64,000 bases of DNA from assembly GCF_006345805.1 (NCBI RefSeq), contig NC_043004.1:73532001-73596000 (forward strand). The letters run 5' to 3'. The position numbers and the translations under genes are program-made. Within the stretch, counting starts at the first letter, position 1. Every line of letters begins with the position of its first letter. The stretch comes from Octopus sinensis. Lineage: Eukaryota. The notes under the pieces were generated by a model. The model was not told where the DNA came from, searched no databases, and saw only the letters and a program-made list of their open reading frames with translations. This document shows, piece after piece, positions 1,240 to 64,000 of this stretch.

Positions 1240-1440
1240 ACGGAGATGTACTCGCATAGCAAGTAATTTGATCTGAGATCGTGTGCTGAAACGAAAACAA
1301 TTGCAGCGTGGAAGGTGTTTATAAGCCATTTAAGAAACACACAAAAGCCGTTCGATTCACTTCAACATTTAAGTTTAAATTTGTCAAAATATTTTCGTCG
1401 CTAAAATCCGCGACCTGTTCACTGACAAAGTCCGTGCTGA
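1240..1440 (-). mobile_element. Short non-coding Penelope-like/retrozyme-like element carrying an HHR
   Basis: Flanked by (TA)n and (GA)n; contains the HHR fold at 1380-1429. Confidence 0.55.
1380..1429 (-). ncRNA. Minimal type I hammerhead ribozyme, G3-C8 core variant
   Basis: Minus strand UUUGUCA-GUGAACA-G-GUCGC(GGAUUUUA)GCGAC-GAA-AAUAUU-U-UGACAAA: 7-bp stem I, 5-bp stem II, palindromic stem III. Confidence 0.7.
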
Positions 1441-1782
1441 GAGGGAGAGAGAGAGAGATAAATAGATATATAGATATACAAATATAATTATGCATACATA
1501 AAAAAACATAGATGCACGTATTTTTATTATTCTTTTATTGTCATTCATTGGACTGCAGTCATGCTGGAACAATAACGTGAAGGGTTTAGATGACCATGTC
1601 TACACTAGTACTTATTTTATTCAGGAATTTACTTTATCGAACTTTATTTACAGGCTTGCTATGTTACAAGACATAAAGTAGCATATATTAGACAACACTG
1701 AAACAGAAAAGCAAATACGTACATACACACAGACACTAACACACACACATACACACACATGACACATGAAGGATTTCTTCTC

Positions 1783-2390
1783 ATAGGCGTAGGAGTGGCT
1801 GTGTGGTAAATAGCTTGCTTACAAACCACATGGTTCCGGGTTCAGTCCCACAGCGTGGCATCTTGATCAAGTGTCTACTACTATAGCTTCGGGCCAACCA
1901 AAGCCTTGTGTGTGGATTTGGTAGACGGAAACTGAAAGAAGCCCGTCGTACATATATTTCTTTACTACCCACAAGGGGCTAAACATAGAGGGGACAAACA
2001 AGGACAGACAAAGGGATTAAGTCGTTTACATCGACCCAGTGTGAAACTGGTACTTTATTTATCGACCCCGAGAGGATGAAAGGCAAAGTCGACCTCGGCG
2101 GAATTTGAACTCAGAACGTAACGACATACGAAATACCGCTAAGCATCTCGCCCGGCGTGCTAACGTTTCTGCCAGCTTGCCGCCTTTATATGTATGTGTG
2201 TGCGTATGTTTGTGTTTCTGTGTTTGTCCCCCCAACATCGCTTGACAACCGATGCTGGTGTGTTTACGTCCCTGTAACTTAGCGGTTTGGTAAAAGATAC
2301 CGATAGAATAGGTCCTGGGGTCGATTTGCTCGACTAAAGGCGGTGCTCCATCATGGCCACAGTCAAATGACTGAAACAAGTAAAAGAGAG
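1783..2390 (+). mobile_element. tRNA-derived SINE, family B (CORE-like, internal microsatellite), interrupted by a family A copy
   Basis: Head GGCGTAGGAGTGGCTGTGTGGT..GGTTCAGTCCC at 1783-1950; tail ..CAAATGACTGAAACAAGTAAAAGAG resumes at ~2187. Confidence 0.85.
1953..2186 (-). mobile_element. SINE family A nested in the internal microsatellite of a family B SINE
   Basis: Full-length match to the copy at 222-452. Confidence 0.85.
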
Positions 2391-2771
2391 AAATTTCTGC
2401 TTGTCCTATTATGCTTTTCAGGTCTTCGTCTTACATGGATATAGAAAATACTTTCCCAACATTTGCAGTGGAAACGAACGCAGAAACACTTGGTGGTGAA
2501 GTTTCTAGAAAAGAGTGTATGTACGTATGTATGTATATATACATGTGCGTGTGCGTGCGTGCATGTGTGTGTGCGTGTGTGGTCGGGTGTACTTGTGGGC
2601 AAAGAGTGAGTGTATATATAAATATTCATGTAGTGTAGGCTGCAAGGAAATAATGCCTTAATTATCAAGGGTGAATTGATTCACCCTGGTTTGATAATTA
2701 CGGATAATTTCAAAGGTATCGCAGCTTTTTGACAATCCTACTAGACTACATTACCATATATGTTTCTCCTT

Positions 2772-2802
<31 letters not shown>

Positions 2803-2847
2803 TATTATTATTATTATTATTATTACTATTATTATTATTATTATTAC

Positions 2848-2898
<51 letters not shown>

Positions 2899-2913
2899 TA
2901 CTACTACTATTAC

Positions 2914-3012
<99 letters not shown>
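2772..3012. repeat. (ATT)n microsatellite
   Basis: About 80 ATT/ACT triplets. Confidence 0.98.
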
Positions 3013-3017
3013 CATTT

Positions 3018-3214
3018 AAGCAGCGAGTTGGCAGAGTCGCTTAGCACGCTGGACGAAATTCTTAGCCGTATTTCGTCCGTAGCAACGTTATGACTTCAAA
3101 TTCCATCGAGGTCAACTTTGACTTTCATCTTTTGGGGGTCGATTAAATAAGTACCAGTTATGCATTGGAGTCAATGTAATCGATTTAGTCCCACCCCAAG
3201 CTGCCCTTGTGGTA
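3018..3214 (+). mobile_element. SINE family A, diverged
   Basis: GCAGCGAGTTGGCAGAGTCGCTTAGCACGC..TTTCATCTTTTGGGGGTCGATTAAATAAGTACCAG. Confidence 0.75.
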
Positions 3215-3508
3215 AATATTTCGATACCCCGTCTGTCTTTTATAAGTTCAAAATATAAATTGAAATTAAATTCAAAGATAGGAAACGCTGAATCATGACA
3301 TCGTTTTACTCGGAAACTGATGACGTTTTACTTGAAAACTGATGACGACGTTTTACTTGGAAAGACCGAAGACTGATGACGTCGTTTTACTTGGAAAGAA
3401 ATGCAGTTATTCCAGTTTAATATTGAATGTTTCAGTGTTTCCTATCTTTGAATTTAACTTCATTTTATATTTTGAACTTGTAAAAGACAGACGGAGTATC
3501 GAAATATT
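3215..3508. mobile_element. MITE/foldback-like element with ~80-bp inverted arms and an internal ~23-bp minisatellite
   Basis: AATATTTCGATACCCCGTCTGTCTTTTATAAGTTCAAAATATAAA.. (3215-3292) mirrored by ..TTTTATATTTTGAACTTGTAAAAGACAGACGGAGTATCGAAATATT (3430-3508); four TGATGAC(GTC)GTTTTACTTGGAAA-like units inside. Confidence 0.7.
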
Positions 3509-3564
3509 GTTCATTCGTTTCATTTCCACTCTAGTATACAGAGTTAATTTCTATTTATTACACA

Positions 3565-3638
3565 CTAGCAGAGATACCCGGCGTTGCCCGGTTACATTCA
3601 ATTGAAGAATTAGACTTTTCTGTTATTTATATATGGAT

Positions 3639-3674
<36 letters not shown>

Positions 3675-4130
3675 GTATATTAATAAAAATACATGAAAGT
3701 ACATGAAGTTTGTTAAAAAAAAGGGAGGATCATGTATATACCTCCTGGCTGTTGAGATTATAACACCTCGTTGTTAACAATGTTCCTTGTTTTTCCTTGT
3801 GGAGCATATACAAAAAGGTTTCTTTTGGTTCCTACTCTTGAGCAGCCAACATACAGTTGCCTATGCGAGAAGCAGGGCTCTTCCAAGAGAACACCAGCTA
3901 CAGAGAGGGTTTGACCCTGAGATTTGTTAATGGACATGGCAAAGCTGACACGAAAGGGGAATTGCAGTCTTCTGAATGTAAATGGAATTTCTGCTCCTGA
4001 TGGAGTAAGAGGAAATCTTGGAATAAAGACGTCATCACCTTTTCCACATCCAGAAAGAATGATCGCCTCGATAACGTGTGGCATCTTTTTCTTTATCACC
4101 AGTCGTGTTCCATTGCAAAGTCTTAGCTGT
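3565..4130 (-). mobile_element. Helitron 3' fragment (PIF1-type helicase C-terminus plus 3' end)
   Basis: LCNGTRL..RRLQFPFRVSFAMSINKSQGQTL..FSHRQLYVGCSRV motifs in ORF 3758-4399; terminal hairpin CCGGGCAACGCCGGG followed by CTAG|T at 3565-3568. Confidence 0.92.
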
Positions 4131-4274
4131 TCCAGGGAGGTAAGTAGTTCTGGATTTGGTGCAATTAGAGTAGATATAGATCTGTAATGGGAATGGTGTA
4201 TGGTATATATAGGGGTTAGCGGAATAATTGAAAGGTTAGTAGTGTTCTGTATTATGTTATGTGTTCTATTGAGT

Positions 4275-4945
4275 TGTGGAAGATCTCTTCTTTTCAATGA
4301 TTCTAATGTCTGGCCATTTGGTAATTGGATGCTTTCGCTGTTGACTACCTGTTCCCTTCTTATGACTAATATTGCACACTCATCTATGTTAAATTCCATG
4401 CCTGTATCTTTGCTGAAGATACAGTCAACATTAAGGGATCTATCTCTTTTTCATTCTTACTGAAAAAGCTTCAGATCATCCATGTAAAGTAAATAGTTAA
4501 ATTTTTCCTTACTGTTTCTGAACTGATACCCTGCCTTTGCTTTCATTAATACTAAATTGAGGTGGATCAAACATGAGACAATTTTCTCTTTTGATATTAA
4601 CTTTCCCTAAGAGTGTGTCATCTGAGTAGAGATCTTCATGCTAAAGCTAATTAATTCTCTTCTGCTGTCTACTATACTGAATTTATCCAAACTTTCTATT
4701 ATCCATGAGTGTGGGATCACGTCATAGGTTTTCTTATAATCTATCCACGCTATTGTCAGGGTTTTTTCTAGCTTTTACTTCATTTAGAACTGCTTTGTCT
4801 GTGTATAATAGATCATGCGTTTCTCTAGCCTTCTTCCTGCAACTTTTTTGTTCTTCTGGCAGTAAATTCTTGTTGTCAGGGTAATCGTAAATGTTTTCTG
4901 AAAGCATTCCTGTTAACAACTTCCAAACTATGTGATTAGTCAATA
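4275..4945 (-). pseudogene. Non-LTR reverse transcriptase fragment, R4/Dong-like, frameshifted
   Basis: WKLLTGMLSENIY..LLPEEQKSCRKKARETHDLLYTDK, PHSWII, NYLLYMDDLKLF, GMEFNIDECAILVI. Confidence 0.85.
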
Positions 4946-5114
4946 GATCACGTTGAAGCTTTTTTTTTTTTATCGAACATATCAGCCCCAGTATTTATTA
5001 GCCTGGGACTTACTCTATCGGAGTCTTTTGTCCAACCGCAGATTTCCGAGACATAAACAACTCAACACCGGTGACAAGCAGTGGGGTTACATATATACAC
5101 TAAGATTCCCACCC

Positions 5115-5192
<78 letters not shown>

Positions 5193-6029: not shown

Positions 6030-6131
6030 TTTACTCTTTACTCTTTTACTTGTTTCAGTCAAGCGATGTTGGGGGCGGACAAACACACAAACACACACAC
6101 ACACATACACATATATATATATATATACACA

Positions 6132-6201
<70 letters not shown>

Positions 6202-7079: not shown

Positions 7080-7995
7080 AGCATAAGGCCGAAAATTTTT
7101 GTTGCGGATAGGGAGTTAGTCGGTTACACCGATCTCAGTTTTTGACTGGGACTTTATTTTATCGGCACTGAGAGGACGAAAATGGCTACCCTGGAGGACG
7201 AAAGGCAAAGTTCACCTGTCAAGGTTTGAATTCATAACGTAAAAAGCCGGAAGAAGTGCCGCTGATGATTTTGCCCGCTCACCTCCTTACACTCTATAAA
7301 CAATCGTTTCTACTATAGGCAAAATGCCTGGAATTTGTAGGGAGCGAGTAACTCGATTACATCGACTCCAGTATTTGACTGGTACTTGATTTATATACTC
7401 CGAAAGGATGAAAGGCAAAGTCAACCTCTGCAAGATTTGAACTCAGAACGTAACTGCAGACGAAATACCTATTTCTTTATTACCCACAAGGGGCTAAACA
7501 CAGAGGGGACAAACAAGGACAGACATAGGTATTAAGTCGATTACATCGACCCCAGTGCGTAACTGGTACTTAATTTATCGACCCCGAAAGGATGAGAGGC
7601 AAAGTTGACCTCGGCGGAATTTGAACTCACAACGTAACGCAGACGAAATACCGCTAAGCATTTCGCCCGATGTGCTAACGTTTCTGCCAGCTCGCCGCAG
7701 ACGAAATACCGTTAAGCATTTCGCCAGGTGTGTTAACAATTCTGCCAGCCCGCCGCTTTGCTTACACTCTATAGATAATAATAATGGATCCAAATTTTGC
7801 CACCAGGGTAGCCATTTTGAGGAGGAGGCGTGTCAATTATATCGACCCCAATGTTCGACTGGTACTTATTTTATTGACGCCGAAAATATGAAAGACAATG
7901 TCGATCTCGGTTGAACTCAGAAGACAGACCCGGGCGAAACACCGCTAAGCATTTCGCCCGGCGTTCTAACGATTCTCACAGCTCACCGCCTTACT
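7080..7995 (-). mobile_element. Head-to-tail cluster of family A SINE copies and fragments
   Basis: Four recurrences of the AAAGGCAAAGT.GACCT-like segment, all minus strand, of differing divergence. Confidence 0.8.
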
Positions 7996-9184: not shown

Positions 9185-9559
9185 CTTGAGCAAGTGTCTT
9201 CTATCGCCGGTTCATTCCCACTGCGTGGCACCTTAGGCAAGTGTCTTCTAATATAGCCTCGGGCCGACTAAAGGTGGAGCTCCAGCATGGCCACAGTCAA
9301 ATGACTGAAACAAGTAAAAGAGTAAAGAGTAATACATATATAGTTATAAAATCTCAAAAAGAGATCGGAGTAGTAGTATTTATACTAAGGAGTATATAGT
9401 CAATCGCCACGTCAGAGTGGCTGTTCCATGTTACTCCTAGTTTAACCCTAGGCAGATCTTTCGCCAGCTGGTTATCGGTGCAACGCTGCACCCTTTATAT
9501 ATAATATATATTGCTAGCAGGAGGAGCGAACCTCTACCATCCTCTAGCAGACAAAAGGA

Positions 9560-9608
9560 TCGCAAAACTGATTCAGTTTGGAGCTGCTTGGCTCATCCTC
9601 AGTCGCGA
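9560..9608 (-). ncRNA. Type I hammerhead ribozyme motif, probably inactivated (G12C)
   Basis: Minus strand UCGCGA-CUGAGGA-U-GAGC(CAAGCA)GCUC-CAA-ACUGAAUCAGU-U-UUGCGA, inside a (TA)n-flanked element at ~9510-9637. Confidence 0.65.
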
Positions 9609-11249
9609 GTACCTGGCCCCTAGAGCGATAGCCAGAGTATATATATTTGGATTTGTGTGTTTGTGTATAACTTTGTGTTTGTCACTCACCACTGCTTAAG
9701 AACTGATTATGGCGGCGGGTTGGTGGAATCGCTACCGCATGCTTGGCGGAATTTCTCCCAACTTTACGATCTGAATTCAAATTCCGCCGCGGTCGAGCCC
9801 CTCCCCCCCCCCCCCCGAATTATCTGGCTTTGTGCCAAACTTTGAAACCGATAATATTATTAATGATTACCGAACTATAATATAAGTGCTAACTAACAGT
9901 GTAAGAGCGAAATATTTGGCAATTGATAAACGCAACGACAGAAAGCTTAATTCATGACACATTAACATCTTTACCATTAGTGGGTCACTGTCGTACACTG
10001 ACGTCACAAAAGTTGGTGTCATCCAGTGCAGTAACTCATGGTGTTATCTTCCATAGACTTCCAACCGTGCCAGATCATACAAAATCCGTAGTAAAGTTTC
10101 TTTTTTTGTTCTAGTATTACTCGTAATTGTTGTGTATCACTGAATGAGAAGGAAATAGCATTGACATAAACATGTTGCAAAATTTAAAATTGCATATTTA
10201 AATTACGATATAATACGCACGGTCTGGATGTTTTTAGGCTGTGCATAATTTCCTGTGGTTAAAATAAATATTCATTAAAGAAAATAATAACAAAAAAAAA
10301 AAAACTAATAGAATTCATAGTAAAATAATTTAAGAACCACTATATTAATGTTGATTTTTAACGTTTAAATTTGTTGTTTTGTGAGGTAAATTAATGTCAC
10401 GAGGGCGTTGGTGTTACATACTATCGCGAAGGTCATGGAAGGAAAGATATGGGATGCTGGTAATTGAGTCGGGTTCTGTTCTGGCTGTGTATGAATGATA
10501 CGTGAGCAATTTTAGAGGAACTTTATTCACTGCACAAAATATTTTCTGTGCCAGTCTTTAACAAGGATTACACACTGGGAGGACAATTCTGTAGTTATTA
10601 CAAAATAGTTGGTTAACTGGTTTCTGTTAATACGCTGTCACGACAGGAGAAAATATCACACTGGATTCATAACTGCAAATCTGTAAATGCCGTCTACTCG
10701 GCTGATAAAGAAGCCACGAGAACGACTGTTAAATGTTACAAAATGAGAATGTGGTTTGCGTGGCGGCGATTCTCCACACTCGGAAATTTGGCACCCAAAG
10801 CATACCTATTAATAAGCCTCGTTAGACGTTCTAGAAGATTCTAGAAAGTTGCATCACGTGATGTCTCGATACTGATTGGTCAGTTTAATCAGCCGATCAC
10901 ATGAAATGGCTGTTACTAAGCCGTGAGTTTTATTTGATAATTTGTCGATTTAGTTTCGAATCTACTACAAATGCATTAGGATTACATTTTATGTTTGGCA
11001 CAATCTTTAGAGCATCAGAGAAATTACTTTATGCCATTCCGCCGTCGCTTTATATTCTGAGTTCAATGCAGTACTATCAATGGATTTAACATGGGCCCAA
11101 ATCTTGATAACCTTAGTAATCGGATTGACGTTTGTATATCCAATGCCATGAGAATGGCGGTACGGTCCGGTCAGTTATTATGCCGGACGGTTGTTCGAGA
11201 GAGTAATCCTTCAAATCGTGTCACCAGCATTTATTATGTTGCATCTAAG

Positions 11250-23422: not shown

Positions 23423-23524
23423 ATATATATATATCCAAACATGAACAAAGAGGAAAACACAACAACGCGAGGACGTGGAACAAGTATAGTGTTATTGGAC
23501 ACTCAGGAAAGGAAAGAAAGGAGG

Positions 23525-23559
23525 ATTTCACGTTTCGAGCGGAGCTCTTCGTCAGAAAT
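23525..23559 (-). ncRNA. Minimal type I HHR motif with non-cleavable GUG site
   Basis: Minus strand AUUU-CUGACGA-A-GAGC(UCC)GCUC-GAA-ACGU-G-AAAU, inside a short element (~23435-23610) between (TA)n and (GATA)n. Confidence 0.6.
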
Positions 23560-23617
23560 ACAGAAAAAAGGAAAAGTCCAAGGAAGGGAAGACGGAGAAA
23601 GAAAAAGATTGATAGAT

Positions 23618-33837: not shown

Positions 33838-33937
33838 NNNNNNNNNNNNNNNNNNNNNNNNNNNNNNNNNNNNNNNNNNNNNNNNNNNNNNNNNNNNNNN
33901 NNNNNNNNNNNNNNNNNNNNNNNNNNNNNNNNNNNNN
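33838..33937. other. Assembly gap (100 N)
   Basis: Run of 100 N interrupting a family A SINE; contiguity across it is unproven. Confidence 1.
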
Positions 33938-34418: not shown

Positions 34419-35155
34419 AGTGTATATATATATATATACACATATCCGTATCTATATCTATGTCATTCTCTCATACTTATATACGTGTGTGTACACACAC
34501 ATATACACACACGTATACACACACACGTACACAAACACACACACACACACACAAGCACATACATGCGCCTTGTTTTCGTCTGTTGAAATTCGTCTGAGAG
34601 TCTGGTGAATTCTAATCGAAGGAAATAGTCTTGACTTGTAAGAATCATCATTTATGTGAGTGTGTGTGTGTGTGTGTGTGCGTGTGTGTGTATCTGCGTG
34701 TGTGTGTGTGTGTCTGTGTCTGCGTGTGTGTGTGTCTGTGTGTGTGTGTGTCTGTGTGTGTCTGCGTGTGTGTGTCTGTGTCTGTGTGTGTGTGTGTCTG
34801 TGTGTGTCTGTGTGTGTAATTAGGAGATGCTGTCTTTCAAAGAAGTTAAATCAAAAATACGATTATGTTCGGCTTTGCAATTTTATGTAGTTTTATGAAG
34901 GACTTGTATTTTCTTAGAAGCTCTTTGACACTGGTTTCGATCAATAACATTCCTAAATCTTTTAACTTGATATTTCAACATTTTCACAATTTAACTGATA
35001 CAAGTAATGACTGATATAAGTGAAAGAATAAAAGAATACACATACACTCACACACACATACACATGTATATTTTGTTTTTGGTATGGGTTTGCAAAATTC
35101 TTTATGTGAGTTCGTGCGTTGATATACATTTTGTTGTACCTGAGGAGAGGCATTG

Positions 35156-35240
35156 TCGTTTAGTTCCTTATTATCTAACACACTTTGTCAAATAATATGG
35201 CAGTAACAGCGAATGACTCCTTAGACACAACAATGTATGC

Positions 35241-35271
<31 letters not shown>

Positions 35272-35369
35272 GTCACCATGATAGATCGTTAGTTCCTTAT
35301 TATTTAACACACTTTGTCAAATAATATGGCAGTAAAAGCGAATGACTCCTTAGACACAACAATGTATGC

Positions 35370-35415
<46 letters not shown>

Positions 35416-35562
35416 ACCATGATAGATCGTTAGTTCCTTATTATTTAACACACTTTGTCAAATAATATGGCAGTAAAAGAGAATGACTCCCTAGACACAA
35501 CAATGTATGCATGTATATATATATATATTTATATATATATAGTCACCATGATAGATCGTTAG
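35156..35562 (+). repeat. Triple tandem duplication (~130-140 bp) spanning an element insertion junction
   Basis: Units start at 35156, 35286 and 35427: TCGTTAGTTCCTTATT..GTATGCATG(TA)nGTCACCATGATAGA. Confidence 0.92.
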
Positions 35563-35602
35563 CCACTACACACATTTTTTCTCTCCTTGTTTTTTCTGTG
35601 TC

Positions 35603-35639
35603 CCTTTCTGTAGAAGAGCGTAGGCTCGAAACGTAAAGG
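35603..35639 (+). ncRNA. Minimal HHR-like motif with CUGUAGA (A6U) core
   Basis: CCUUU-CUGUAGA-A-GAGC(GUAG)GCUC-GAA-ACGU-A-AAGG in a (TA)n-tailed element at ~35541-35728; relatives at 45907-46027 (+) and 53370-53600 (-). Confidence 0.5.
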
Positions 35640-36170
35640 ACTTTTTCTATTCCTGAGCGTTATACTAATACATCTGTTTGTTTTGTACACCACCTGTCTT
35701 CGTCTTTTGTTTTTTCGTAAACTCTCCCTATATATATATATATATATATATACATACATACACATACAGGGAGACAATTTTTATATTCAACATAATTGTG
35801 TGTTAGAATACAAAATACTAGGTTATTTACTTTGGGAAGACCCCTCAGAGGGGCTCGGGTTGTATAAAAGTATCTATAATACTTCCGGTGTTATTAATTA
35901 TGTTTTAATAAGCCCTCTGGTTATTTGCGACGTCACCGCTTGAATAGCTACTGAAATTCTTTACATTCTTGATTGGGAGACTCGGCTTTTCTGTCTGCTA
36001 CGATGGAGCCCAGGCAGGGCGAAATCATGTGACCTGGCTGTTTCAGTGACCGTAGTAGATGGCTGCCGTCTGTCAACGATATACGTACAAGTGCTTTTAT
36101 GCACCGCTAGTCCATATCAGAAATACTCTCACGGTAAATAATGCGGTATTCAATGTTCTAACACTATGCC

Positions 36171-40050: not shown

Positions 40051-40503
40051 TACATATTTATTCTTAGTAGATTCCGGCAAATTCGAACGGGAACATGCTA
40101 ATCGCTGTTGTCTTCATCACAGAAGAACGACTTCTCCTTTACGATTAGTGCGTGTTCATATCACACTCGATTCATTAACGCAAGAGATTCTAGGACACCA
40201 GAGTTTCGGCATGTTTGCACTACGGATCAATGGATCGAACAAGAGCCGATGGTCTTGTTTATAATTTCAGTGAACAGTTTCGTCGTTGATTTCCACTGAT
40301 ATCTATCAACCGGTTAATAAATCGACATATTCCCGGTGACGAAAGACATGTTGAAACACGTGTCTGAGAATCCCTTGCACTAATGAATCAAGTATCTTAT
40401 AAACACATATTCGTAGTAAAGCAGAAGTCGTTCTTCTGTGACGAACACGACAGGGATTAGCGTATTCACATTTGAATCTGCCGGAATGTATTAATAGATA
40501 TGC
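40051..40503. mobile_element. Old inverted-repeat element (diverged arms of about 95-180 bp)
   Basis: TTCCGGCAAATTCGAA..CACAGAAGAACGACTTCT (left) versus AGAAGTCGTTCTTCTGTG..TTTGAATCTGCCGGAA (right); degenerate HHR-like GTGACGA..GAAACACGTGTC at ~40335-40362. Confidence 0.6.
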
Positions 40504-42049: not shown

Positions 42050-44150
42050 ATTTGTGATCTAAGCAAAATAAAGGAGCATCAATTTCTTTGGAGACCAAGA
42101 TCAGTATTTTAGATCGTCTTCGTAAGGACGAAAATGCAGCGGCCTTGGGTAGAGCTTTCTGCCTGAACAAAGCTACGATAAGAACGTTCAAAAGGAAGGA
42201 TGCTGCCATTAGAAGATCTCTAGCTTCTGGAACAAAATTATCTGCCAAATCGTCGTCATATGCAAGAGACATGATTCAAGAAAAAAAAAATGGAGAAAAC
42301 TTTAATAATAAGGATAGAAGAAAACGATCAAAAAAGGATGCCAGTAGATAGTAAAACCATAAAACAGACGAATGTGCATTCATCTGTCGAGTGATAAAAA
42401 GAAGATTGGATTTGCTGCGAGTACGAGATGGCTTAGAAAACTCCTCGAAAGATACGCACTGCATAATATAAAAATGAGAGGCGAAATTACATGGGCAGAT
42501 TAAACTGCTGCTGAAGAATTTCTTCCAAAATTAGCCAAAATGATTGTAGAAGGCGGTTACATTTCAGACCAAGTTTTCAACACAAATGAAACTGGTCTCT
42601 TTTGGAAAAAAATGCCAAACAGAACGTATATAACAAAATCAGAGAAAAGTGCCAGTGGTTTTAAGGCAGCTAAAGACCGTGTAACTTTCTTGTTACGTAG
42701 CAACGTTTCAGGAAATTGTTTTATTTTTTTAACCGAATTAATCGATCAGTTCGTCTGCGTACAATGAAAGGCGTAGACATAAGTAAATTACCAGTTCTTT
42801 GGAGAATCAATGAAAAAAATCATGGATGACAGCAGAAATATTTACTGAGTGGTGTAACAACTGCTTCATTTCTGAAGTAAGAAGATAAATGGAAGATAAA
42901 GGTCTTGAGTTTAAAGTCCTTTTACTTATAGACAATGCACTCGTTCATCCAGATTTGGAACGCCCGAATGTAAAAGTCGTATTCTTGCCCCCTAATATAA
43001 CATAGCTGATTCAAACGCTTAATCACGGGGTATCATTTCAACCTTCAAATCGTATTATATCCAGTGAGCATTTGAATATATTATAGATGAACTAGTAAAA
43101 GATGGTATACTTTCAATCATTCAAGCATGGAAAGAATTTATTATAATTAATTGTGTTAAAAATGCTGCCCTAGTTTTATCCAAAGTAAAGCCATCCACCC
43201 TAAATGCCTGCTGGAGATCACTTTGGCCAGAATGTGTAGAGCCTAAAACTCTCGAATATAATATGCTGAGACCCCCTTTGGTTATGGTTGACCGTGAGAT
43301 TGCACCTAGAAAGTTACCCTCCCAGACACAAAACCGGGCAAGGTTGTTTATGGAAGACTAGCAATCACTCATGAATACCGACCTCCCCTCTCCACGCCAC
43401 CAGTGTTATCCAAGGGAAAGGCAAAGGGGCCGATACAGCTTGACACCTGTGACGTTGTAACTCATTTCTACTGCTGAGTGAACTGGAGCAACACGAAATA
43501 AAGTGTCTTGCTCAAGAACAGAATACGCAGCCCGGTTCGAGATTCAAAGTCACAACCTCACGATCGTAAGCTCGACGCTCTAACCACTGAGCCATGCGCC
43601 TTCACCGAATCTAATATAAATATGAACAAATTACTTTCTGATATCATCACTTTGTCACATCAGATTGGCAGAGAAGGTCTTTCAAGAATTAACAATTGAC
43701 GAAGCTCCTACTGAAGAACAAATTATAGAGAGTATTTCAGAAACTGTATATGATTCCACGGGTGTTTATAGTAGTGATGATGAAGAAGTTGTTCCACTAT
43801 CTGCGAGTACAATTCTAGAAGGCCTCCAAAGAGCCAGTGAGCTTGGAAACCATTTTCTTACAAATGACAACAATGTTGAACGAGCTGTACAATTCCAAAG
43901 TGATTTGAAAATGATTATGGCACGTTATGAAGAATCATATACAGAACTAACAAAAACAAAATCACAGCATCTGATAACCGAATTCGTATTCAAAACCAGT
44001 GAAACAAAAGAAACACTAGATTCTAATTTTATTTCAAGATACACATGAAGATATATCGCCTTTAAATATTTCCAGTGACCAGAGTGATTTTGCGTCACCG
44101 AAAAACCAACAGAAAGCGGGCACGTTTACTGCCTAGTAGTGACACTGAAT
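42050..44150 (+). pseudogene. pogo/Tigger (CENP-B/TIGD-like) DDE transposase, decayed
   Basis: HTH segment ETKISILDRLRK..LNKATIRTF; VFNTNETGLFWKKMPNRTYI..GFKAAKDRVT; KVLLLIDNALVHP..VFLPPNIT; multiple stops and frameshifts. Confidence 0.9.
43265..43605 (-). mobile_element. tRNA-derived SINE inserted into the pogo transposase, with 12-bp TSD
   Basis: Minus head GTGAAGGCGCATGGCTCAGTGGTTAGAGCG; TSD CGAATATAATAT (43253-43264) / CGAATCTAATAT (43606-43617), 1 mismatch. Confidence 0.8.
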
Positions 44151-44768: not shown

Positions 44769-45355
44769 AAATTGAATAAGGGTAGAAATTTATATTAATC
44801 AATTAAAACCAGTGGCTTAGCATATTAAAAAAATCCGAAGATTAAAATATTTTTTACATACAAAATTTAAAGGACTGACCACTAAAAGTGGACGGTCAAT
44901 ATGCTAGATATAGACGTCAAAATCGCTATTTTCCACGAAGAATGTGTTCTCAAGAAAAAACTCAGCACAAAACCAAAGCGTAAAAAATAAGCAAGACAAA
45001 TGAAAAAATGAAGGCATTTGAAAGATAAACATAAATATAATTTGTTGAACTCTATGCATACGGGACTCCAGCCAAGCGTTATGTATCTAGTTCTGGAAAT
45101 TATGTTTGTATACGACAGACTATGCTGATGAGCTTCCAGATTTTCGCGTATGCATATACGTGAATATTAACAAGTGAAACTGATCGGTACATAGGTAATC
45201 GTTTTTATTTCGTATATTTTCATTTGTCTTGCTTATTTTTAATGCTTTGGTTTTGTGCTGAGTTTTTTCTTGAGAACACATTCTTCGTAGAAAATAGCGA
45301 TTTTGACGTCTATATCTAGCATATTGACCGTCCACTTTTAGTGGTCAGTCCTTTA

Positions 45356-45361
<6 letters not shown>
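44769..45361 (+). mobile_element. Penelope-like non-autonomous element with inverted 145-bp arms and an internal HHR
   Basis: Arms 44862-45006 and 45217-45361 (about 3 mismatches by eye); both outer ends abut (TA)n. Confidence 0.75.
45120..45194 (+). ncRNA. Type I hammerhead ribozyme, intact core
   Basis: CUAUG-CUGAUGA-GCUU(long loop with UUCGCGUAU/AUACGUGAA hairpin)AAGU-GAA-ACUGAUCGGU-A-CAUAG; predicted cleavage after GUA at 45189. Confidence 0.8.
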
Positions 45362-45842: not shown

Positions 45843-45909
<67 letters not shown>

Positions 45910-46043
45910 GAGCGTGGGCTCGAAATATTAAAGACTTTTTCACTTCCCGAGCGTTAAACTAATACATCTGTTTGTTGTCTACACACCTGTCTTCGTCTTT
46001 TGTTTTTTTTTGTGAATTCTCGCCCCCCTATATATATATATGT

Positions 46044-47599: not shown

Positions 47600-49640
47600 A
47601 GGCGTAGGAGTGGCTGTGTGGTAAGTAGCTTGCTTGAAAATTGTGTTGTTCCTGTCAAGGAGTACCTAGAAGAGAATTGGAATTATTTTTTAACTGTTTT
47701 ACAATTGTTTTAAATTTTGGCCTGCAGTACCAAGTGGCCTTTGCTGTGTTTTGAACTGTTGCTCTCTCTTCTTCTGTCTTTAATTTTAAAAAAAACTTTA
47801 TTGAACTGTTAATTTTTTTCTCTCTCCTTCCTTTTGTTTGGACTTTTTCCTCTTCCTTCTTTTTCTTTGATTATTTTATATTTTAACAACTGTATTTTTG
47901 GATTCTTTTAAAAAAAACATGGCAAATAACAATGAAAAGTTGGTGGAGTGGGAAATTACACCACCCAATAAATGGTTAAAAGAATTTGAAAGTAAGACGG
48001 TGATTTTGAGGACCTACTCTAGGACCCTCGACGCCATTGCCGTTTTCAGAAAGGATATAATCGAAAGAGAGCTGGCAGAATTTAAGCCAGCGATTAAGTT
48101 TATCACTCGTGGGATCAAATACGCAACCGTGTGGTTGCTGTTTGACTCACTAGAAGTGGCCTGTGAATTTGCAAGTCAGCCCCTGGAGTGTAATGAAATT
48201 TTGTTTCTTCCCACTTATTGTGGGAAGAGTTTGACGAAGGCTTGTGTTTGCGACTTGCCAATAGAAGTTGAGCCCCAGTGGATAGGAGATACTATCCGCC
48301 GGGGTCTGGGTGGTAGTAGCACCAAGCTCCTCAGCGTAAATATTCTGCCTGCGGCTGACTGGGAGAGGTCAAAAGCTGTTTTGACCATATGAACCCAGTC
48401 AGCCGAAAGTCTGGTATTTCCAGACATTTTGAGAATGGCCGGTGATTCTTGAGGGATGCCCCCACCAAGTGTCATCGTTGCTTGAAACCTGGCCATATAA
48501 AAAAGAACTGTTCTTAAGGGCAAAGCAAAATCCCGGAGCGGTTGACGGAGACCTCTGTAGAGGAGGGAATGAAGGCGGCCGAAGAGACGGAGGTCTCATC
48601 AAAGAAGAGCCACAAAAGGAAGGAGGAGAGCAATAATGGGTGCTCACCAAAGGATTCTGGGAATGAGGGAGGGGAGGCAAATCTCCAGGTCACGGAGAAA
48701 CAGCACCCTCCCCCAGTCGAGAAGAAGAAAAAAGAAGAAGAGGAGGAGAAACGGGACATTGCCGGCAGTCGGAAACATGACGCCGGAATGTTACGGAGCC
48801 TCGTCGGTTGTGCCACCGGAGCGGGGGAGACACCATTAGCAGGAGTTGTGCCGCCAGCGGTAGAATTAACCAACCCGGACCCGATGGACCAGAAACTGTT
48901 GGTCTTCTTATATAGAGGCGGAGAGGTGGGAAAGATAGTGAAAGAACACTACGAGGGAATACCTTTGGTCTTCACACAGGACCCCGAATGGCCTCCGCAG
49001 ATAGCTGTGGAGGTCATAACGTTGCGCCTGTTTATGATGCTGGGCGGACTAAAAGAAGAATATCGCTCGTGGCCGGGTAACGCCAACTCGGACCCCGCCG
49101 TGATTTTAAACGAAGCATTGGTTATGGCGGAGTACACGGACACAAGCGATTATGAGGTGAAAAATTGACAAGAGGTTGAAAAGCCTCAGTGTTATAAAGT
49201 GTAAGAGGCCCAGCGCCTCATTTGTAAATGGACTAGTGCTGATTGTATATTGAATATTTTTGTAAGTTAATATTGGTAATGGACTATTAAGTCCAAAAAC
49301 TGTAAAAACTGTTGTGAGAGGTTCAATACATCGCTTTGTTTATTCTGTTTTAAAAAAAATAACAATGTTTTAGAGAAGAAAATCGGCGGGCGTTTTTGCT
49401 TTCTCTCATCAATATCATACTTATTTCATCATTCACCTCATCAATGTACATGTCCAACCCGCAGCTACGCTTTGTAATGCCTCTATGGCAAATTTTTATG
49501 AAGTAAAGTAGCTTGCTTACGAACTACATGGTCCCACTGCGTGGCACCTTGGCCAAATGTCTTCTACTATAGCCTCAGGCCAACCAAAGCCTTGTGAGTG
49601 GATTTGGTAGACGGAAACTGAAAGAAGCCCGTCGTATATA
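47600..49640 (+). mobile_element. SINE family B head split by a 1.87-kb insertion
   Basis: Head 47600-47635 resumes at 49506 as AAGTAGCTTGCTTACGAACTACATGG..GAAGCCCGTCG. Confidence 0.88.
47636..49505 (+). mobile_element. ORF1-only (HAL1-like / Tx1-L1 gag-like) non-autonomous retroelement, ORF disrupted
   Basis: Perfect 13-bp TSD AAGTAGCTTGCTT (47623-47635, 49506-49518); ORF from ATG 47919 with stops and frameshifts; CCHC knuckle CHRCLKPGHIKKNC at 48470-48511; charged tail to 49168; no EN or RT. Confidence 0.75.
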
Positions 49641-53048: not shown

Positions 53049-53369
53049 ATTAATATATGCAATCATACACACACGTACACACACACACAACCAAACACAC
53101 ATACACACACGTACACACACGTACACACACACACACACATACATATATTTATGTATGTATGCATGTATGCATATATATATATTAATATATGCAATCATAT
53201 ATATGTGTATGTATATACATACACATATATATATTATGTAATCATATATATATATATATATATATTAAAACATGTATATATATATGTATAGATATGTATT
53301 AATATATGCAATCATATATATGCGTGTATGTATATACACATACACATATATATGTATGTATGTATATAA

Positions 53370-53600
53370 CGGGAAGCTTTATGAAAATAGACAAAAGACG
53401 AAGGCAGGTGGAAAACAAACGAACAATCGTATTAGTATGGCGCTCAGGAATATAAATAAAACAAGTCTTTAAACGTTTCGAGCCTACGCTCTCAACAGAA
53501 AGATACACAGAGAGAAAAAAACACAGAAAGAAGGAGAGAAAAAAAATGCGTGCAGTAGCTAACGAATCAACATGGCGATCTGATTTCGGCCAGAGGTCAA
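53370..53600 (-). mobile_element. (TA)n-anchored element of the 35541-35728 family, with CUGUUGA HHR-like core
   Basis: Minus strand CTTTCTGTTGAGAGCGTAGGCTCGAAACGTTTAAAG at ~53466-53501. Confidence 0.55.
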
Positions 53601-58199: not shown

Positions 58200-58260
<61 letters not shown>

Positions 58261-58536
58261 TATATATAAAAATTTAGCAATAAGGACAACTACTTAATAA
58301 GAAAACTTAACAAGAAATTGTCAGGTAGATAGCGTAAAAACCTCATAAGAGAAAAATTTCGAAAATAATTATTTCTTATTGAACATATTAATTTATATAT
58401 AGAGGGCATTATACATACATGCCAGGAGGCATTCTACATACACGCCAAACGCTAAGAGGGACAATCAGTCTTTCTACCAAAAATATTACTAATCCTACCG
58501 AATGCAATTTTTCAAAGAAAGACATTTAAAATATAT

Positions 58537-58584
58537 AGACCTGTATCACAGTGATTTCATACTTACGTAATCATCAGCAGGCCT
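58537..58584 (-). ncRNA. Minimal type I hammerhead ribozyme (unit 1 of the array)
   Basis: AGGCCUG-CUGAUGA-U-UAC(GUAA)GUA-U-GAA-AUCACUGUGAU-A-CAGGUCU. Confidence 0.75.
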
Positions 58585-60443
58585 GAATATCTATAAATAA
58601 ACAACGACCCTGCTTCGCTTAAGTCGATCAGCTAACTGATCAACATCAACGAAGCACAGGGTGAATTTATATATACATTCCGGATGAATGGCAAACTTTT
58701 ACGAATTGCATTTCGGGAGAGGAAAAGTTTTTTCGGAATAAAAATTTAGCAATTAAGGACAACTACTTAATAAGGAAAACTTAACAAGAAATTGTCAGTA
58801 GATAGCGTAAAAACCTCATAAGAGAAAAAATTTGAAAATAATTATTTCTTATTGAACATATAATTTTATATATAGAGGGCATTATACATACATGCCAGGA
58901 GGCATTCTACATACACGCCATACGCTAAGAGGGACAATCAGTCATTTCTACCAAAAATATTACTATCCTACCGAATGCAATTTTTCAAAGAAAGACATTT
59001 AAAAGATATATAGACCTGTATCACAGTGATTTCATACTTACGTAATCATCAGCAGCCTGAATATACTATAAATAAACAACGACCCTGCTTCGCTTAAGTC
59101 GATCAGCTACTGATCAACATCAACGAAGCACATGGGTGAATTTTATATACTATAGCCGGATGAATGGCAAACTTTTACGAATTGCATTTCGGGAGAGGAA
59201 AAGTTTTTTCGGAATAAAAATTTAGCAATTAAGGACAACTACTTAATAAGGAAAACTTAACAAGAAATTGTCAGGTAGATAGCGTAAAAACCTCATAAGA
59301 GAAAAAATTTCGAAAATAATTATTTCTTATTGAACATATTAATTTATATATAGAGGGCCTTATACATACATGCCAGGAGGCATTCTACATACACGCCATA
59401 CGCTAAGAGGGACAATCATCATTCTACCCAAATCTAAATACCAAATCTACTACCGAATGCAATTTTTCAAAGAAAGACATTTAAAAATATATAGACCTGT
59501 ATCACAGTGATTTCATACTTACGTAATCATCAGCAGGCCTGAATTACTATAAATAAACAACGACCCTGCTTCGCTTAAGTCGATCAGCTAACTGATCAAC
59601 ATCAACGAAGCACATGGGTGAATTTATATATACTATATCCGGATGAATGGCAAACTTTTACGAATTGCATTTCGGGAGAGGAAAGTTTTTTCGGAATAAA
59701 AATTTAGCAATTAAGGACAACTACTTAATAAGGAAAACTTAACAAGAAATTTCAGGTAGATAGCGTAAAAACCTCATAAGAGAACAATTTCGAAAATAAT
59801 TATTCTTATTGAACATATTAATTTATATATAGAGGGCATTATACATACATGCCAGAGGCATTCTACATACACGCATACGCTAAGAGGGACAATCAGTCAT
59901 TTCTACCAAAAATATTACTAATCCTACCGAATGCAATTTTTCAAAGAAAGACATTAAAAATATATAGACCTGTATCACAGTGATTTCATACTTACGTAAT
60001 CATCAGCAGGCCTGAATATACTAAAATAAACCGACCCTGCTTCGCTTAAGTCGATCAGCTAACTGATCAACATCAACGAAGCACATGGGTGAATTTATAT
60101 ATACTATATCCGGATGAATGGCAAACTTTTACGAATTGCATTTCGGGAGAGGAAAAGTTTTTTCGGAATAAAAATTTAGCAATTAAGGACAACTACTTAA
60201 TAAGGAAAACTTAACAAGAAATTGTCAGGTAGATAGCGTAAAAACCTCATAAGAGAAAAAATTTCGAAAATAATTATTTCTTATTGAACATATTAATTTA
60301 TATATAGAGGGCATTATACATACATGCCAGGAGGCATTCTACATACACGCCATACGCTAAGAGGGACAATCAGTCATTTCTACCAAAAATATTACTAATC
60401 CTACCGAATGCAATTTTTCAAAGAAAGACATTTAAAAATATAT

Positions 60444-60491
60444 AGACCTGTATCACAGTGATTTCATACTTACGTAATCATCAGCAGGCCT
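60444..60491 (-). ncRNA. Minimal type I hammerhead ribozyme (unit 5, representative; one per unit)
   Basis: Same sequence as unit 1; predicted cleavage after AUA, between plus coordinates 60451 and 60450. Confidence 0.75.
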
Positions 60492-63400
60492 GAATATACT
60501 ATAAATAAACAACGACCCTGCTTCGCTTAAGTCGATCAGCTAACTGATCAACATCAACGAAGCACATGGGTGAATTTATATATACTATATCCGGATGAAT
60601 GGCAAACTTTTACGAATTGCATTTCGGGAGAGGAAAAGTTTTTTCGGAATAAAAATTTAGCAATTAAGGACAACTACTTAATAAGGAAAACTTAACAAGA
60701 AATTGTCAGGTAGATAGCGTAAAACCTCATAAGAGAAACATTTCGAAAATAATTATTTCTTATTGAACATATTAATTTATATATAGAGGGCATTATACAT
60801 ACATGCCAGGAGGCATTCTACATACACGCCAAACGCTAAGAGGGACAATCAGTCATTTCTACCAAAATATTACTAATCCTACCGAATGCAATTTTTCAAA
60901 GAAAGACATTTAAAATATATAGACCTGTATCACAGTGATTTCATACTTACGTAATCATCAGCAGGCCTGAATACTATAAATAAACAACGACCCTGCTTCG
61001 CTTAAGTCGATCATCTAACTGATCAACATCACGAAGCACATGGGTGAATTTATATATACTATATCCGGATGAATGGCAAACTTTTACGAATTGCATTTCG
61101 GGAGAGGAAAAGTTTTTTCGGAATAAAAATTTAGCAATTAAGGACAACTACTTAATAAGGAAAACTTAACAAGAAATTGTCAGGTAGATAGCGCAAAACC
61201 TCATAAGAGAAAAATTTCGAAAATAATTATTTCTTATTGAACATATTAATTTATATATAGAGGGCATTATACATACATGCCAGGAGGCATTCTACATACA
61301 CGCCATACGCTAAGAGGGACAATCAGTCATTTCTACCAAAAATATTACTAATCCTACCGAATGCAATTTTTCAAAGAAAGACATTTAAAAATATATAGAC
61401 CTGTATCACAGTGATTTCATACTTACGTAATCATCAGCAGGCCTGAATATACTATAAATAAACAACGACCCTGCTTCGCTTAAGTCGATCAGCTAACTGA
61501 TCAACATCAACGAAGCACAGGGTGAATTTATATATACTATATCCGGATGAATGGCAAACTTTTACGAATGCATTTCGGGAGAGGAAAAGTTTTTTCGGAT
61601 AAAATTTAGCAATTAGGACAACTACTTAATAAGGAAAACTTAACAAGAAATTGTCAGGTAGATAGCGTAAAAACCTCATAAGAGAAAAAATTTCGAAAAT
61701 AATTATTTCTTATTGAACATATTAATTTAATATAGAGGGCATTATACATACATGCCAGGAGGCATTCTACATACACGCCATACGCTAAGAGGGACAATCA
61801 GTCATTTCTACCAAAATACTAATCCTACCGAATGCAATTTTTCAAAGAAAGACATTTAAAAATATATAGACCTGTATCACAGTGATTTCATACTTACGTA
61901 ATCATCAGCAGGCCTGAATATACTATAAATAACAACGACCCTGCTTCGCTTAAGTCGATCAGCTAACTGATCAACATCAACGAAGCACATGGGTGAATTT
62001 ATATATACTATATCCGGATGATGGCAAACTTTTACGAATTGCATTTCGGGAGAGGAAAAGTTTTTTCGGAATAAAAATTTAGCAATTAAGGACAACTACT
62101 TAATAAGGAAAACTTAACAAGAATTGTCAGGTAGATAGCGTAAAAACCTCATAAGAGAAACAATTTCGAAAATAATTATTTCTTATTGAACATATTAATT
62201 TATATATATAGAGGGCATTATACATACATGCCAGGAGGCATTCTACATACACGCCATACGCTAAGAGGGACAATCAGTCATTTCTACCAAAAATATTACT
62301 AATCCTACCGAATGCAATTTTTCAAAGAAAGACATTTAAAAATATATAGACCTGTATCACAGTGATTTCATACTTACGTAATCATCAGCAGCCTGAATAT
62401 ACTATAAATAAACAACGACCCTGCTTCGCTTAAGTCGATCAGCTAACTGATCAACATCAACGAAGCACATGGGTGAATTTATATATACTATATCCGGATG
62501 AATGGCAAACTTTTACGAATTGCATTTCGGGAGAGGAAAAGTTTTTTCGGAATAAAAATTTAGCAATTAAGGACAACTACTTAATAAGAAAACTTAACAA
62601 GAAATGTCAGGTAGATAGCGTAAAAACCTCATAAGAGAAAAAATTTCGAAAATAATTATTTCTTATTGAACATATTAATTTATATATAGAGGGCATTATA
62701 CATACATGCCAGGAGGCATTCTACATACACGCCATACGCTAAGAGGGACAATCAGTCATTTCTACCAAAAATTACTAATCCTACCGAATGCAATTTTTCA
62801 AAGAAAGACATTTAAAAATATATAGACCTGTATCACAGTGATTTCATACTACGTAATCATCAGCAGGCCTGAATATACTATAAATAAACAACGACCCTGC
62901 TTCGCTTAAGTCGATCAGCTAACTGATCAACATCAACGAAGCACATGGTGAATTTATATATACTATCCGGATGAATGGCAAACTTTTACGAATTGCATTT
63001 CGGGAGAGGAAAAGTTTTTTCGGAATAAAAATTTAGCAATTAAGGACAACTACTTAATAAGGAAAACTTAACAAGAAATTGTCAGGTAGATAGCGTAAAA
63101 ACCTCATAAGAGAAAAAATTTCGAAAATAATATTTCTTATTGAACATATTAATTTATATATAGAGGGCATTATACATACATGCCAGGAGGCATTCTACAT
63201 ACACGCCATACGCTAAGAGGGACAATCAGTCATTTCTACCAAACAAAAATATTACTAATCCTACCGAATGCAATTTTTCAAAGAAAGACATTTAAAATAT
63301 ATAGACCTGTATCACAGTGATTTCATACTTACGTAATCATCAGCAGGCCTGAATATACTATAAATAAACAACGACCCTGCTTCGCTTAAGTCGATCAGCT

Positions 63401-64000
63401 AACTGATCAACATCAACGAAGCACATGGGTGAATTTATATATACTATATCCGGATGAATGGCAAACTTTTACGAATTGCATTTCGGGAGAGGAAAAGTTT
63501 TTTCGGAATAAAAATTTAGCAATTAAGGACAACTACTTATAAGGAAAACTTAACAAGAAATTGTCAGGTAGATAGCGTAATAACCTCATAAGAGAAAAAA
63601 TTTCGAAAATAATTATTTCTTATTGAACACTATTATTTATATATAGAGGGCATTATACATACATGCCAGGAGGCATTCTACATACACGCCATACGCTAAG
63701 AGGGACAATCAGTCATTTCTACCAAAAAATATACTAATCCTACCGAATGCAATTTTCAAAGAAAGACATTTAAAAATATATAGACCTGTATCACAGTGAT
63801 TTCATACTTACGTAATCATCAGCAGGCCTGAATATACTATAAATAAACAACGACCCTGCTTCGCTTAAGTCGATCAGCTAACTGATCAACATCAACGAAG
63901 CACATGGGTGAATTTATATATACTATATCCGGATGAATGGCAAACTTTTACGAATTGCATTTCGGGAGAGGAAAAGTTTTTTCGGAATAAAAATTAGCAA

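What the first reader, a model, noticed from the sequence alone, without database searches (positions are those of the whole stretch)
1240..64000. High density of sequence-unrelated HHR families in (TA)n-anchored mini-elements
Seen in 64 kb: HHR folds at 1380 (-), 9560 (-), 23525 (-), 35603 (+) with relatives at 45907 and 53466, 45120 (+) and the terminal array, plus degenerate ones near 35992-36040 and 40335-40362. The six clear ones share type I topology and a palindromic stem III (AAUAUU, ACUGAAUCAGU, ACGU, ACUGAUCGGU, AUCACUGUGAU); several have an extra base after A9; most sit beside (TA)n. Inference: the genome hosts a large radiation of non-autonomous Penelope-derived ribozyme elements that target TA microsatellites and are probably annotated as unknown repeats.
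Basis: partly seen in the sequence, partly recalled or inferred. Interest (0 to 1): 0.72.

Follow-up and report, generated by a model that had tools for sequence, protein, structure and literature searches.

The report
Penelope-linked hammerhead ribozyme repeat families
This stretch of an animal genome holds ten insertions from eight repeat families that carry a hammerhead self-cutting-RNA fold; some are the cut-off ends of protein-coding Penelope-type jumping genes and others are protein-free repeats, whose back-to-back arrays in TA runs likely record one RNA, possibly a circle, being copied from both sides of a DNA cut.

Summary
The hammerhead folds are real, but only three sites have an intact core (1422, 45125, terminal array). 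The window is typical of this genome, not a hotspot: 10 intact cores in 600 kb of systematic samples against 2.3 in shuffles.

The eight families are a mixture. Two (1422; 35608 and relatives) are 5'-truncated ends of autonomous Penelope-like elements (PLEs), traced to reverse-transcriptase or GIY-YIG reading frames. Two (45125; the 481-bp array) are protein-free tandem units, i.e. retrozymes; two more probably are.

The array is one 9-kb insertion with two head-to-head arms in a TA run. In 15 of 15 such insertions one arm ends at a long and the other at a short fixed site 113 nt apart. Both arms share insertion-specific variants (0 of 10,000 permutations). This fits twin-primed copying of one template, likely a circle, by a PLE enzyme.

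Hammerheads in PLE ends, inverted arms with a tail, and retrozymes as PLE passengers are published. I did not find the strict end-pairing or shared haplotype in print, but this scan has reported the two-site arms on other DNA of this genome. Cleavage and circles are untested.

The parts
1239..1438 (-). Family A: short pLTR copy of an autonomous PLE. Hammerhead 1380-1429 (G3-C8 core, extra G after A9, 3-bp palindromic stem III, U17). ORF start codon at 1329. Tail about 1239-1297. 3' end abuts TA 1226-1238.
   Evidence: 831 first-look candidates, top hits 100%; 1042-aa frame in L171; L183 reads from this ATG into the frame
9336..9637 (-). Family E: older element, probably a tandem unit of about 330-380 bp. 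Hammerhead 9560-9608 with a private G12->C change in this copy. Only a short TA run at the 3' end.
   Evidence: 222 candidates; direct repeats at 331-382 nt in 7 of 20 loci; inverted arms in 6 of 20
23435..23604 (-). Family F: 5'-truncated element related to family D. Minimal hammerhead 23525-23559 with a private G at position 17. 3' end abuts TA.
   Evidence: (3198 candidates). No coding partner traced.
35542..35728 (+). Family D copy 1: 3' end of an autonomous Neptune-type PLE. Minimal hammerhead 35604-35641 with family-wide U at position 6. 3' end abuts TA.
   Evidence: 2357 candidates; GIY-YIG frame upstream in L302, L315, L319
35955..36173 (+). Family G: old decayed copy, hammerhead remnant 35992-36046. 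Relatives have intact cores and a 5-bp palindromic stem III. 3' end abuts TA.
   Evidence: (271 candidates)
40078..40480 (.). Family H: old two-armed (inverted) insertion, hammerhead remnant about 40330-40372 on +. Not TA-flanked.
   Evidence: (123 candidates)
44769..45360 (.). Family B: two-armed insertion of a non-coding unit of about 537 bp. Left arm 44769-45009 (-) has the long end (tail about 90 nt); right arm 45005-45360 (+) has the short end. Intact hammerhead 45120-45194 with a 44-nt stem II region. TA at both ends.
   Evidence: (3067 candidates)
45907..46028 (+). Family D copy 2, 5'-truncated inside the hammerhead core, TA on both sides
53369..53578 (-). Family D copy 3, diverged (74%), U6 core, stem I broken, imperfect TA at the 3' end
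58270..64000 (-). Family C: long-end arm of one two-armed insertion of a 481-bp non-coding unit. 12 intact hammerheads lie in the window. The insertion continues to G000:C8:73599322 (15.5 units on -, then 3.4 units on + ending at the short site).
   Evidence: (883 candidates, 95-98% raw identity)
58208..58269 (.). (TA)n target tract at the long 3' end of the array

Best explanation
The window holds ten insertions from eight hammerhead-bearing repeat families: truncated ends of autonomous Penelope-like elements (A, D, probably F) and protein-free tandem units (B, C, probably E, G) that are likely copied into TA runs by a Penelope-like reverse transcriptase-endonuclease. Shown: the coding partners of A and D; fixed 3' ends at TA; head-to-head arms with one long and one short end in A, B and C; one haplotype per insertion in C. 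Inferred: a PLE protein dimer cuts both strands of a TA run, and each free 3' end primes reverse transcription at one of two internal start sites on the same kind of RNA. The two cDNAs are then joined at short microhomologies or palindromes, which gives the inverted arms and the one-sided tail. Also inferred (about even odds): for the tandem units the template is a monomer circle made by hammerhead cleavage, copied round and round, so both arms become arrays of one haplotype. The palindromic stem III predicts dimer-type cleavage between neighbouring units (untested).
For: Family A: upstream sequence leads to a 1042-aa frame with a YVDD reverse-transcriptase motif, a CX3CxxC linker and a GIY-YIG/CCHH-type end. 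Homologues carry RT or GIY-YIG labels. The pLTR contains the ORF start and the tail lies inside the ORF, as in PAc and Pen2a. Family D: shared upstream sequence of over 1.4 kb reaches a GIY-YIG frame with a CX4CxxC linker. Family C: 15 of 20 fetched insertions are two-armed and 15 of 15 pair a long end (~474) with a short end (~361). All 35 outer 3' ends abut TA. The long arm is the longer one in 7 and the shorter in 8. Junctions show 1-4 nt overlap (9), 14-15 nt overlap at palindromes (2) or 2-8 extra nt (4). The same pairing holds in A (12 of 12 distinct loci) and B (11 of 12). Neither end is at the cleavage site (unit position ~202), so arms must cross it. Substitution distance among 190 units: same arm 0.0037, opposite arms 0.0025, different insertions 0.0095; 0 of 10,000 arm permutations reach the observed value. 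The C unit folds as a circle far better than shuffles (z -7.6) and has no ATG frame over 29 aa. In vitro, a PLE cuts and extends both strands and starts at two internal sites that bound the tail.
Against: No cleavage, circle or strand-specific RNA was shown. No autonomous partner sharing sequence with B, C, E, G or H was found among 14 coding loci from two families. 2 of 20 C insertions (L025, L026) are mosaics of haplotypes in blocks, which a single monomer circle does not explain. A homogeneous multimeric transcript predicts the same shared haplotype, and PAc used uncleaved RNA in vitro. One B insertion (L044) has two short ends. D and F are one-armed with one 3' end in the 25 and 20 top loci examined, so the two-site pattern is not general. 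Pfam finds no RT or GIY-YIG domain in the family A frame itself. Minimum-energy folds give the full hammerhead for none of the 8 window sequences as monomers, though stems I and II form in most. The 20 C insertions were picked from multi-unit top hits, so the two-armed share is biased. The assembly has many single-base indels.
Confidence: 0.7

Rival explanations
1. Same PLE enzyme and same two start sites, but the template is a long uncleaved multimeric read-through transcript of an existing array. The hammerheads are passengers and no circle is involved.
For: PAc hammerhead mutants insert normally and uncleaved RNA is the main template in vitro. Block mosaics in L025 and L026. The very abundant family D spreads with a U6 core (9 of 17 random hits), and changes at position 6 lower activity (A6C). 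Only 1 of 9 Xenopus retrozymes cleaved in vitro.
Against: Many insertions are each fixed for a different variant set in every unit of both arms (window, L013, L015, L016, L020, L027-L030). That needs frequent single-unit bottlenecks. The non-coding families keep canonical cores and 5-bp stem III, while coding-family ends carry short stems and odd cores.
Confidence: 0.3
2. Insertions begin as short PLE-type ends and become arrays afterwards by unequal crossover, with gene conversion homogenising the arms (the model in the 2026 preprint).
For: Proposed for Xenopus retrozymes. Arms longer than one unit could expand this way. A few variants are shared by non-adjacent units in the window array.
Against: Very young insertions already have up to about 16 units, while older families B, E and G show at most 2-3 in fetched loci (different families, so weak). 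Opposite arms are as alike as same-arm units. Arms must cross the cleavage site at insertion to exceed one unit.
Confidence: 0.1
3. The inverted arm arises by fold-back self-priming, in which the first cDNA or an antisense RNA is copied back on itself, rather than by two target-primed events.
For: Proposed for rotifer Penelopes with palindromic junctions. 2 of 15 C junctions sit on 14-15 nt palindromes, the window's one on hammerhead stem III.
Against: Junction positions on the two arms are unrelated in most insertions, and either arm can be the longer (7 against 8), which simple fold-back copying does not allow.
Confidence: 0.1
4. The folds are chance descriptor matches in low-complexity DNA, and the arrays are assembly or polishing artefacts.
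For: Relaxed hits are only about twice the shuffle rate (8 against 3.7; 78 against 42.5). Array copy numbers may be wrong.
Against: Each named site belongs to a dispersed family with fixed ends. Insertion-private variants are the opposite of what genome-wide polishing would give. A contig of another organism shows the same inverted layout (X2).
Confidence: 0.03

Closest known systems
Minimal type I hammerheads in metazoan PLE pseudo-LTRs (Cervera and de la Pena 2014, PMC4209133; parts 1-2 of 4 read)
   Same: Type I topology, palindromic stem III, extra base between 9 and 10.1, many variable families per genome, mostly solo truncated copies, pairs on opposite strands, a covarying 3-8 pair.
   Different: The covariation reported there is U3-A8; family A has G3-C8 and family D has U6. 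No cephalopod is named in the parts read.
Metazoan non-LTR retrozymes (Cervera and de la Pena 2020, PMC7229834, passages and Discussion read; Li, Clavereau, Pollet 2026, 10.64898/2026.07.22.740005, parts 1-3 of 5 read)
   Same: Non-coding tandem units with one type I hammerhead each, low GC, proposed PLE mobilisation and circle templates. A U.U pair at the base of stem II occurs in axolotl HHR_Amex2.
   Different: Units here (481, 537 bp) are above the 170-400 nt of the 2020 paper but inside the preprint's 51-972 bp. Head-to-head arms, fixed long/short ends, TA targets and one haplotype per insertion are not described in what I read. Circles were shown there, not here.
PAc Poseidon of Anolis and Penelopes of Adineta (Frangieh 2024, PMC11167929, main text read; Arkhipova 2013, PMC3846280, passages read)
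   Same: pLTR overlapping the ORF start, optional tail between two internal start sites, inverted 5'-truncated arm, AT-rich targets, cutting and extension of both strands.
   Different: Tails there are 30-40 nt; here about 58 (A), 90 (B) and 113 (C). Here the tail signature also marks non-coding units and pairs strictly long with short.
Neptune/Nematis-type EN+ PLEs (Craig 2021, PMC8557442, passages read)
   Same: C-terminal GIY-YIG with CCHH and a CX2-5CxxC linker, hypothesised to drive microsatellite targeting.
   Different: Clade not tested on a tree; the family A frame is not recognised by Pfam.

Membership tests
Type I hammerhead ribozyme | Conserved core with stems I-III in type I order | tested here: met
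   Intact at 1422 (G3-C8), 45125 and 12 array copies; family-typical cores intact for E, F and G
Type I hammerhead ribozyme | A at position 6 (family D: 35608, 45907, 53466) | tested here: not met
   U6 in every family D core read, e.g. 22 of one spelling and 12; so D is a hammerhead-like variant, activity doubtful
Type I hammerhead ribozyme | Self-cleavage after position 17 | not testable with these tools
   Needs transcription assay; laid runs were contigs only
EN+ Penelope-like element (families A, D) | Single ORF with RT and C-terminal GIY-YIG endonuclease | tested here: met
   A: 1042-aa frame with RT and GIY-YIG-type motifs read by eye; homologues labelled RT or GIY-YIG; Pfam blank on the frame itself. 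D: only the endonuclease end was reached (E 0.00075, below the curated cut-off)
EN+ Penelope-like element (families A, D) | pLTR with hammerhead, overlapping the ORF start | tested here: met
   A. For D the overlap with an ORF start was not examined
EN+ Penelope-like element (families A, D) | Inverted 5'-truncated arm and one-sided tail | tested here: inconclusive
   Met for A (12 of 12 distinct two-armed loci among 30); not seen for D (0 of 25)
Neptune clade | CX2-5CxxC linker plus CCHH | tested here: met
   Motifs read in L171, L175 and L319; shared with Nematis and Naiad
Neptune clade | Placement in an RT phylogeny | not tested
Non-LTR retrozyme (families B, C) | Non-coding tandem unit with one type I hammerhead per unit, dispersed | tested here: met
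   longest ATG frame 29 aa (C) and 67 aa (B)
Non-LTR retrozyme (families B, C) | Expressed as linear and circular monomer RNA | not testable with these tools
   No run on record as RNA; a tandem joint cannot be told from a circle joint in contigs
Non-LTR retrozyme (families E, G) | Tandem unit without ORF | tested here: inconclusive
   Partial tandem spacing in 7 of 20 (E) and 2 of 15 (G) loci; full units not rebuilt

The most novel reading that the evidence does not exclude
Each two-armed array is the single-event product of a Penelope-type enzyme dimer whose two reverse transcriptases start at two different fixed sites on one hammerhead-made RNA circle and roll around it from both ends of a cut TA run. 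The genome thus preserves hundreds of read-outs of the unexplained PLE tandem/inverted mechanism. Ribozyme activity would be needed only by the protein-free circles, which would explain their canonical cores and long stem III next to the variant cores (G3-C8, U6) of coding families.
Probability: 0.4. Interest if true: 0.75.

Novelty: new variant of a known kind. Interest (0 to 1): 0.5.

Why it matters
How Penelope-like elements make their tandem and inverted insertions, what their hammerheads do, and whether animal retrozymes are copied from RNA circles by PLE enzymes are open questions in the papers read. This genome offers young non-coding templates with two mapped start sites, one haplotype per insertion, and long open PLE frames, so the mechanism can be tested directly. 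The headline as first written (many hammerhead families beside TA) is expected for a PLE-rich animal genome.

Tried and rejected
Rfam scan at E<=5: the 150 best of 395 rows were microsatellite matches to miRNA models, with no hammerhead among those listed. The repeat finder was swamped by simple repeats.

Window as a hotspot: rejected. By hand, 3 intact-core insertions against 1.07 expected gives Poisson P about 0.09. Proximity to TA on either side as a test: rejected as too weak.

A MITE-like reading of 44769-45360 (terminal inverted repeats): rejected, because arm lengths vary between copies and one arm carries a tail.

Partner search: a second coding family (L175, 53% identical) has its own pLTR and no similarity to B or C. 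An intron reading of the sequence just upstream of the family A hammerhead was considered and left untested.

Expression: no RNA holder listed. Contigs of four runs guessed to be RNA cover the unit but cannot show transcription, strand or circles.

PDB sequence search of the A frame: nothing. The Atlas search gave no result. One search used the wrong flank of L064 and returned an unrelated SINE; it was redone.

In one search one site label was off by one (the window's private variant is at 125); the distances use all sites. 23 of 213 pieces were dropped there as short or mis-extended.

Literature: six searches found no paper on octopus hammerhead families or on strict long/short pairing. Subscription papers are not searched. 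Supplements (e.g. the PLE file of PMC8557442, preprint tables) were not looked at and may list these families. Lunse et al. 2017 on dimer-cleaving PLE hammerheads is recalled only.
Full report
Setting. The window is G000:C8:73532001-73596000 in a 2.72-Gb animal assembly. It is very rich in microsatellites. The best named homologue of one of its elements is an Octopus protein, so an octopod is inferred.

Observation. I wrote a type I hammerhead descriptor allowing any Watson-Crick 3-8 pair, one extra base after A9 and a 0-1 nt loop III. With no core deviation it finds 1422(-), 45125(+) and 12 copies in the terminal array. Outside the array, 418 block-wise dinucleotide shuffles give 3.7 relaxed hits against 8 observed (13 of 418 reach 8), and 0.02 against 2 for intact cores scoring 15 or more (0 of 418). 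Sixty 10-kb stretches taken at round coordinates (599.8 kb) give 10 intact cores against 2.3 +/- 1.7 in 39 shuffle sets (maximum 7), and 78 relaxed hits against 42.5. That is 1.07 and 8.3 per 64 kb, so the window is ordinary for this genome. A rough extrapolation by hand gives some tens of thousands of intact motifs. Only 1 of those 10 belongs to a window family, which supports many families.

TA association. A third of the window is within 200 nt of (TA)5, so nearness alone means little. The link is polar: 10 of 17 family hits in the random sample have (TA)4 at the 3' end, 1 of 17 at the 5' end, background 0.043. Among fetched loci, TA follows the 3' end in 34 of 50 for family D and 12 of 20 for F, and at all 35 outer ends of 20 family C insertions.

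Coding families. Family A (1239-1438) has near-identical copies. In 7 of 25 loci it extends upstream, and in 5 of these a GIY-YIG frame is reached. A search with that frame found long open copies, one of 1042 aa with a YVDD motif, a CX3CxxC linker and a CCHH-type endonuclease. Pfam does not recognise it, but 86 homologues include RT- and GIY-YIG-labelled proteins. The ATG at 1329 reads into that frame in L183, so the window copy is the pLTR with the first 30 codons, the layout of PAc and Pen2a. Its G3-C8 core is family-wide; the same double swap partly rescues PAc cleavage. Family D (35608, 45907, 53466) extends more than 1.4 kb upstream to a GIY-YIG frame with a CX4CxxC linker. Its U6 core is family-wide, and a change at that position lowered activity in a natural variant (A6C). 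Family F is related to D (z 6.2) and has an intact core in most copies; no coding partner was traced. D and F were one-armed in the loci examined.

Non-coding families. The array is a 481-bp unit dispersed over many contigs. I fetched 20 multi-unit insertions from the top hits. Fifteen consist of two arms pointing outward, joined at their 5' ends. In all 15, one arm ends near unit position 474 and the other near 361; independent choice would give this about 3 times in 100,000. The predicted cleavage site is at about 202, so neither end is made by the ribozyme. Either arm may be the longer (7 against 8), and junction points are mostly unrelated between arms. The window's own insertion has 15.5 plus 3.4 units, and its junction lies on the stem III palindrome. 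Family B (44769-45360) is the same design with a 537-bp unit and a tail of about 90 nt; 11 of 12 two-armed insertions pair long with short. Family A does so in 12 of 12 distinct loci, where the query fixed one long end in most cases. E and G show partial tandem spacing and inverted arms, and H is two-armed in the window.

Template. Across 190 near-full C units, substitution distance is 0.0037 within an arm, 0.0025 between opposite arms of one insertion and 0.0095 between insertions. No permutation of 13 arm pairs in 10,000 matched the observed value. Several insertions carry variants fixed in every covered unit of both arms, the window's included; two (L025, L026) are block mosaics. So both arms normally come from one template haplotype. 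A monomer circle explains this most simply, and the unit folds stably as a circle (z -7.6). A homogeneous multimer transcript is not excluded.

Mechanism. Shown: family membership, coding partners of A and D, fixed ends, TA targets, end pairing, shared haplotype. Taken from published work on a related element: both target strands are cut and extended, and copying starts at two internal sites that bound the tail. Inferred: one start site per target strand, joining of the two cDNAs at microhomologies, and rolling-circle copying for B and C. A pattern on few families: pLTR-type ends (A, D, F) have 2-3 bp stems III and two of three have odd cores, while the tandem-unit families (B, C, E, G) have canonical cores and 5-bp stems. 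That would fit cleavage mattering mainly to the non-coding units.

Known and new. Minimal hammerheads in PLE ends, their abundance and variety, the extra base and the palindromes are published. So are retrozymes and the proposal of circle templates, their PLE origin, the inverted arm with optional tail and microsatellite bias. Six searches found no account of strict long/short pairing, one haplotype per insertion, or these cephalopod families; supplements were not seen. Earlier notes of this scan report the same kind of families and two-site arms elsewhere in this genome. I noted the end pairing before reading them, and they are not counted as evidence. One note reports many pairs with an end elsewhere in another family, a caution I did not test.

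Verdict. Observation partly confirmed, interpretation partly supported. This is a new variant of known kinds, whose value lies in the mechanistic record left by the arrays. Interest 0.5.

Noticed in passing
L175-L178, L180, L182, about 550 nt after the ORF end: A second long-ORF PLE family (1044 aa, 53% identical to family A's) has a hammerhead-like fold in its pLTR whose core seems to have C in place of A9 in all six copies printed.
   Followed up: no
window 35160-35541: Three copies of a 141-bp unit, each with its own TA run and the first 21 nt of the adjacent family D copy; looks like a local duplication or template jumps. A lone core half-motif lies at 35140.
   Followed up: no
window 3758-4450 (-): Frame whose end resembles a PIF1-type helicase of Helitrons (recalled resemblance; Pfam blank).
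   Followed up: partly
window about 42400-44050 (+): Broken frames resembling a Tigger/pogo transposase (recalled resemblance; Pfam blank on 43626-44045).
   Followed up: partly
window 47871-48392 and 48518-49168 (+): Two non-repetitive frames (173 and 216 aa) of unknown kind, possibly a retroelement ORF1; only a weak DUF2632 hit.
   Followed up: partly
L178 5628(-)/5820(+); L184 982/1977/7228; L175 7064; L177 7396: Further unrelated intact hammerhead families in fetched flanks, several with 45-65 nt stem II regions and inverted pairs.
   Followed up: no
L177 about 1160-2440 (-): A 427-aa asparagine-rich frame ending in a GIY-YIG-like stretch next to a hammerhead at 7396: likely a third PLE family.
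   Followed up: no
L025, L026: Single-armed family C arrays made of blocks of two haplotypes, suggesting template switching or a multimeric template.
   Followed up: partly
window 33838-33937: A 100-base run of N (assembly gap or withheld stretch).
   Followed up: no
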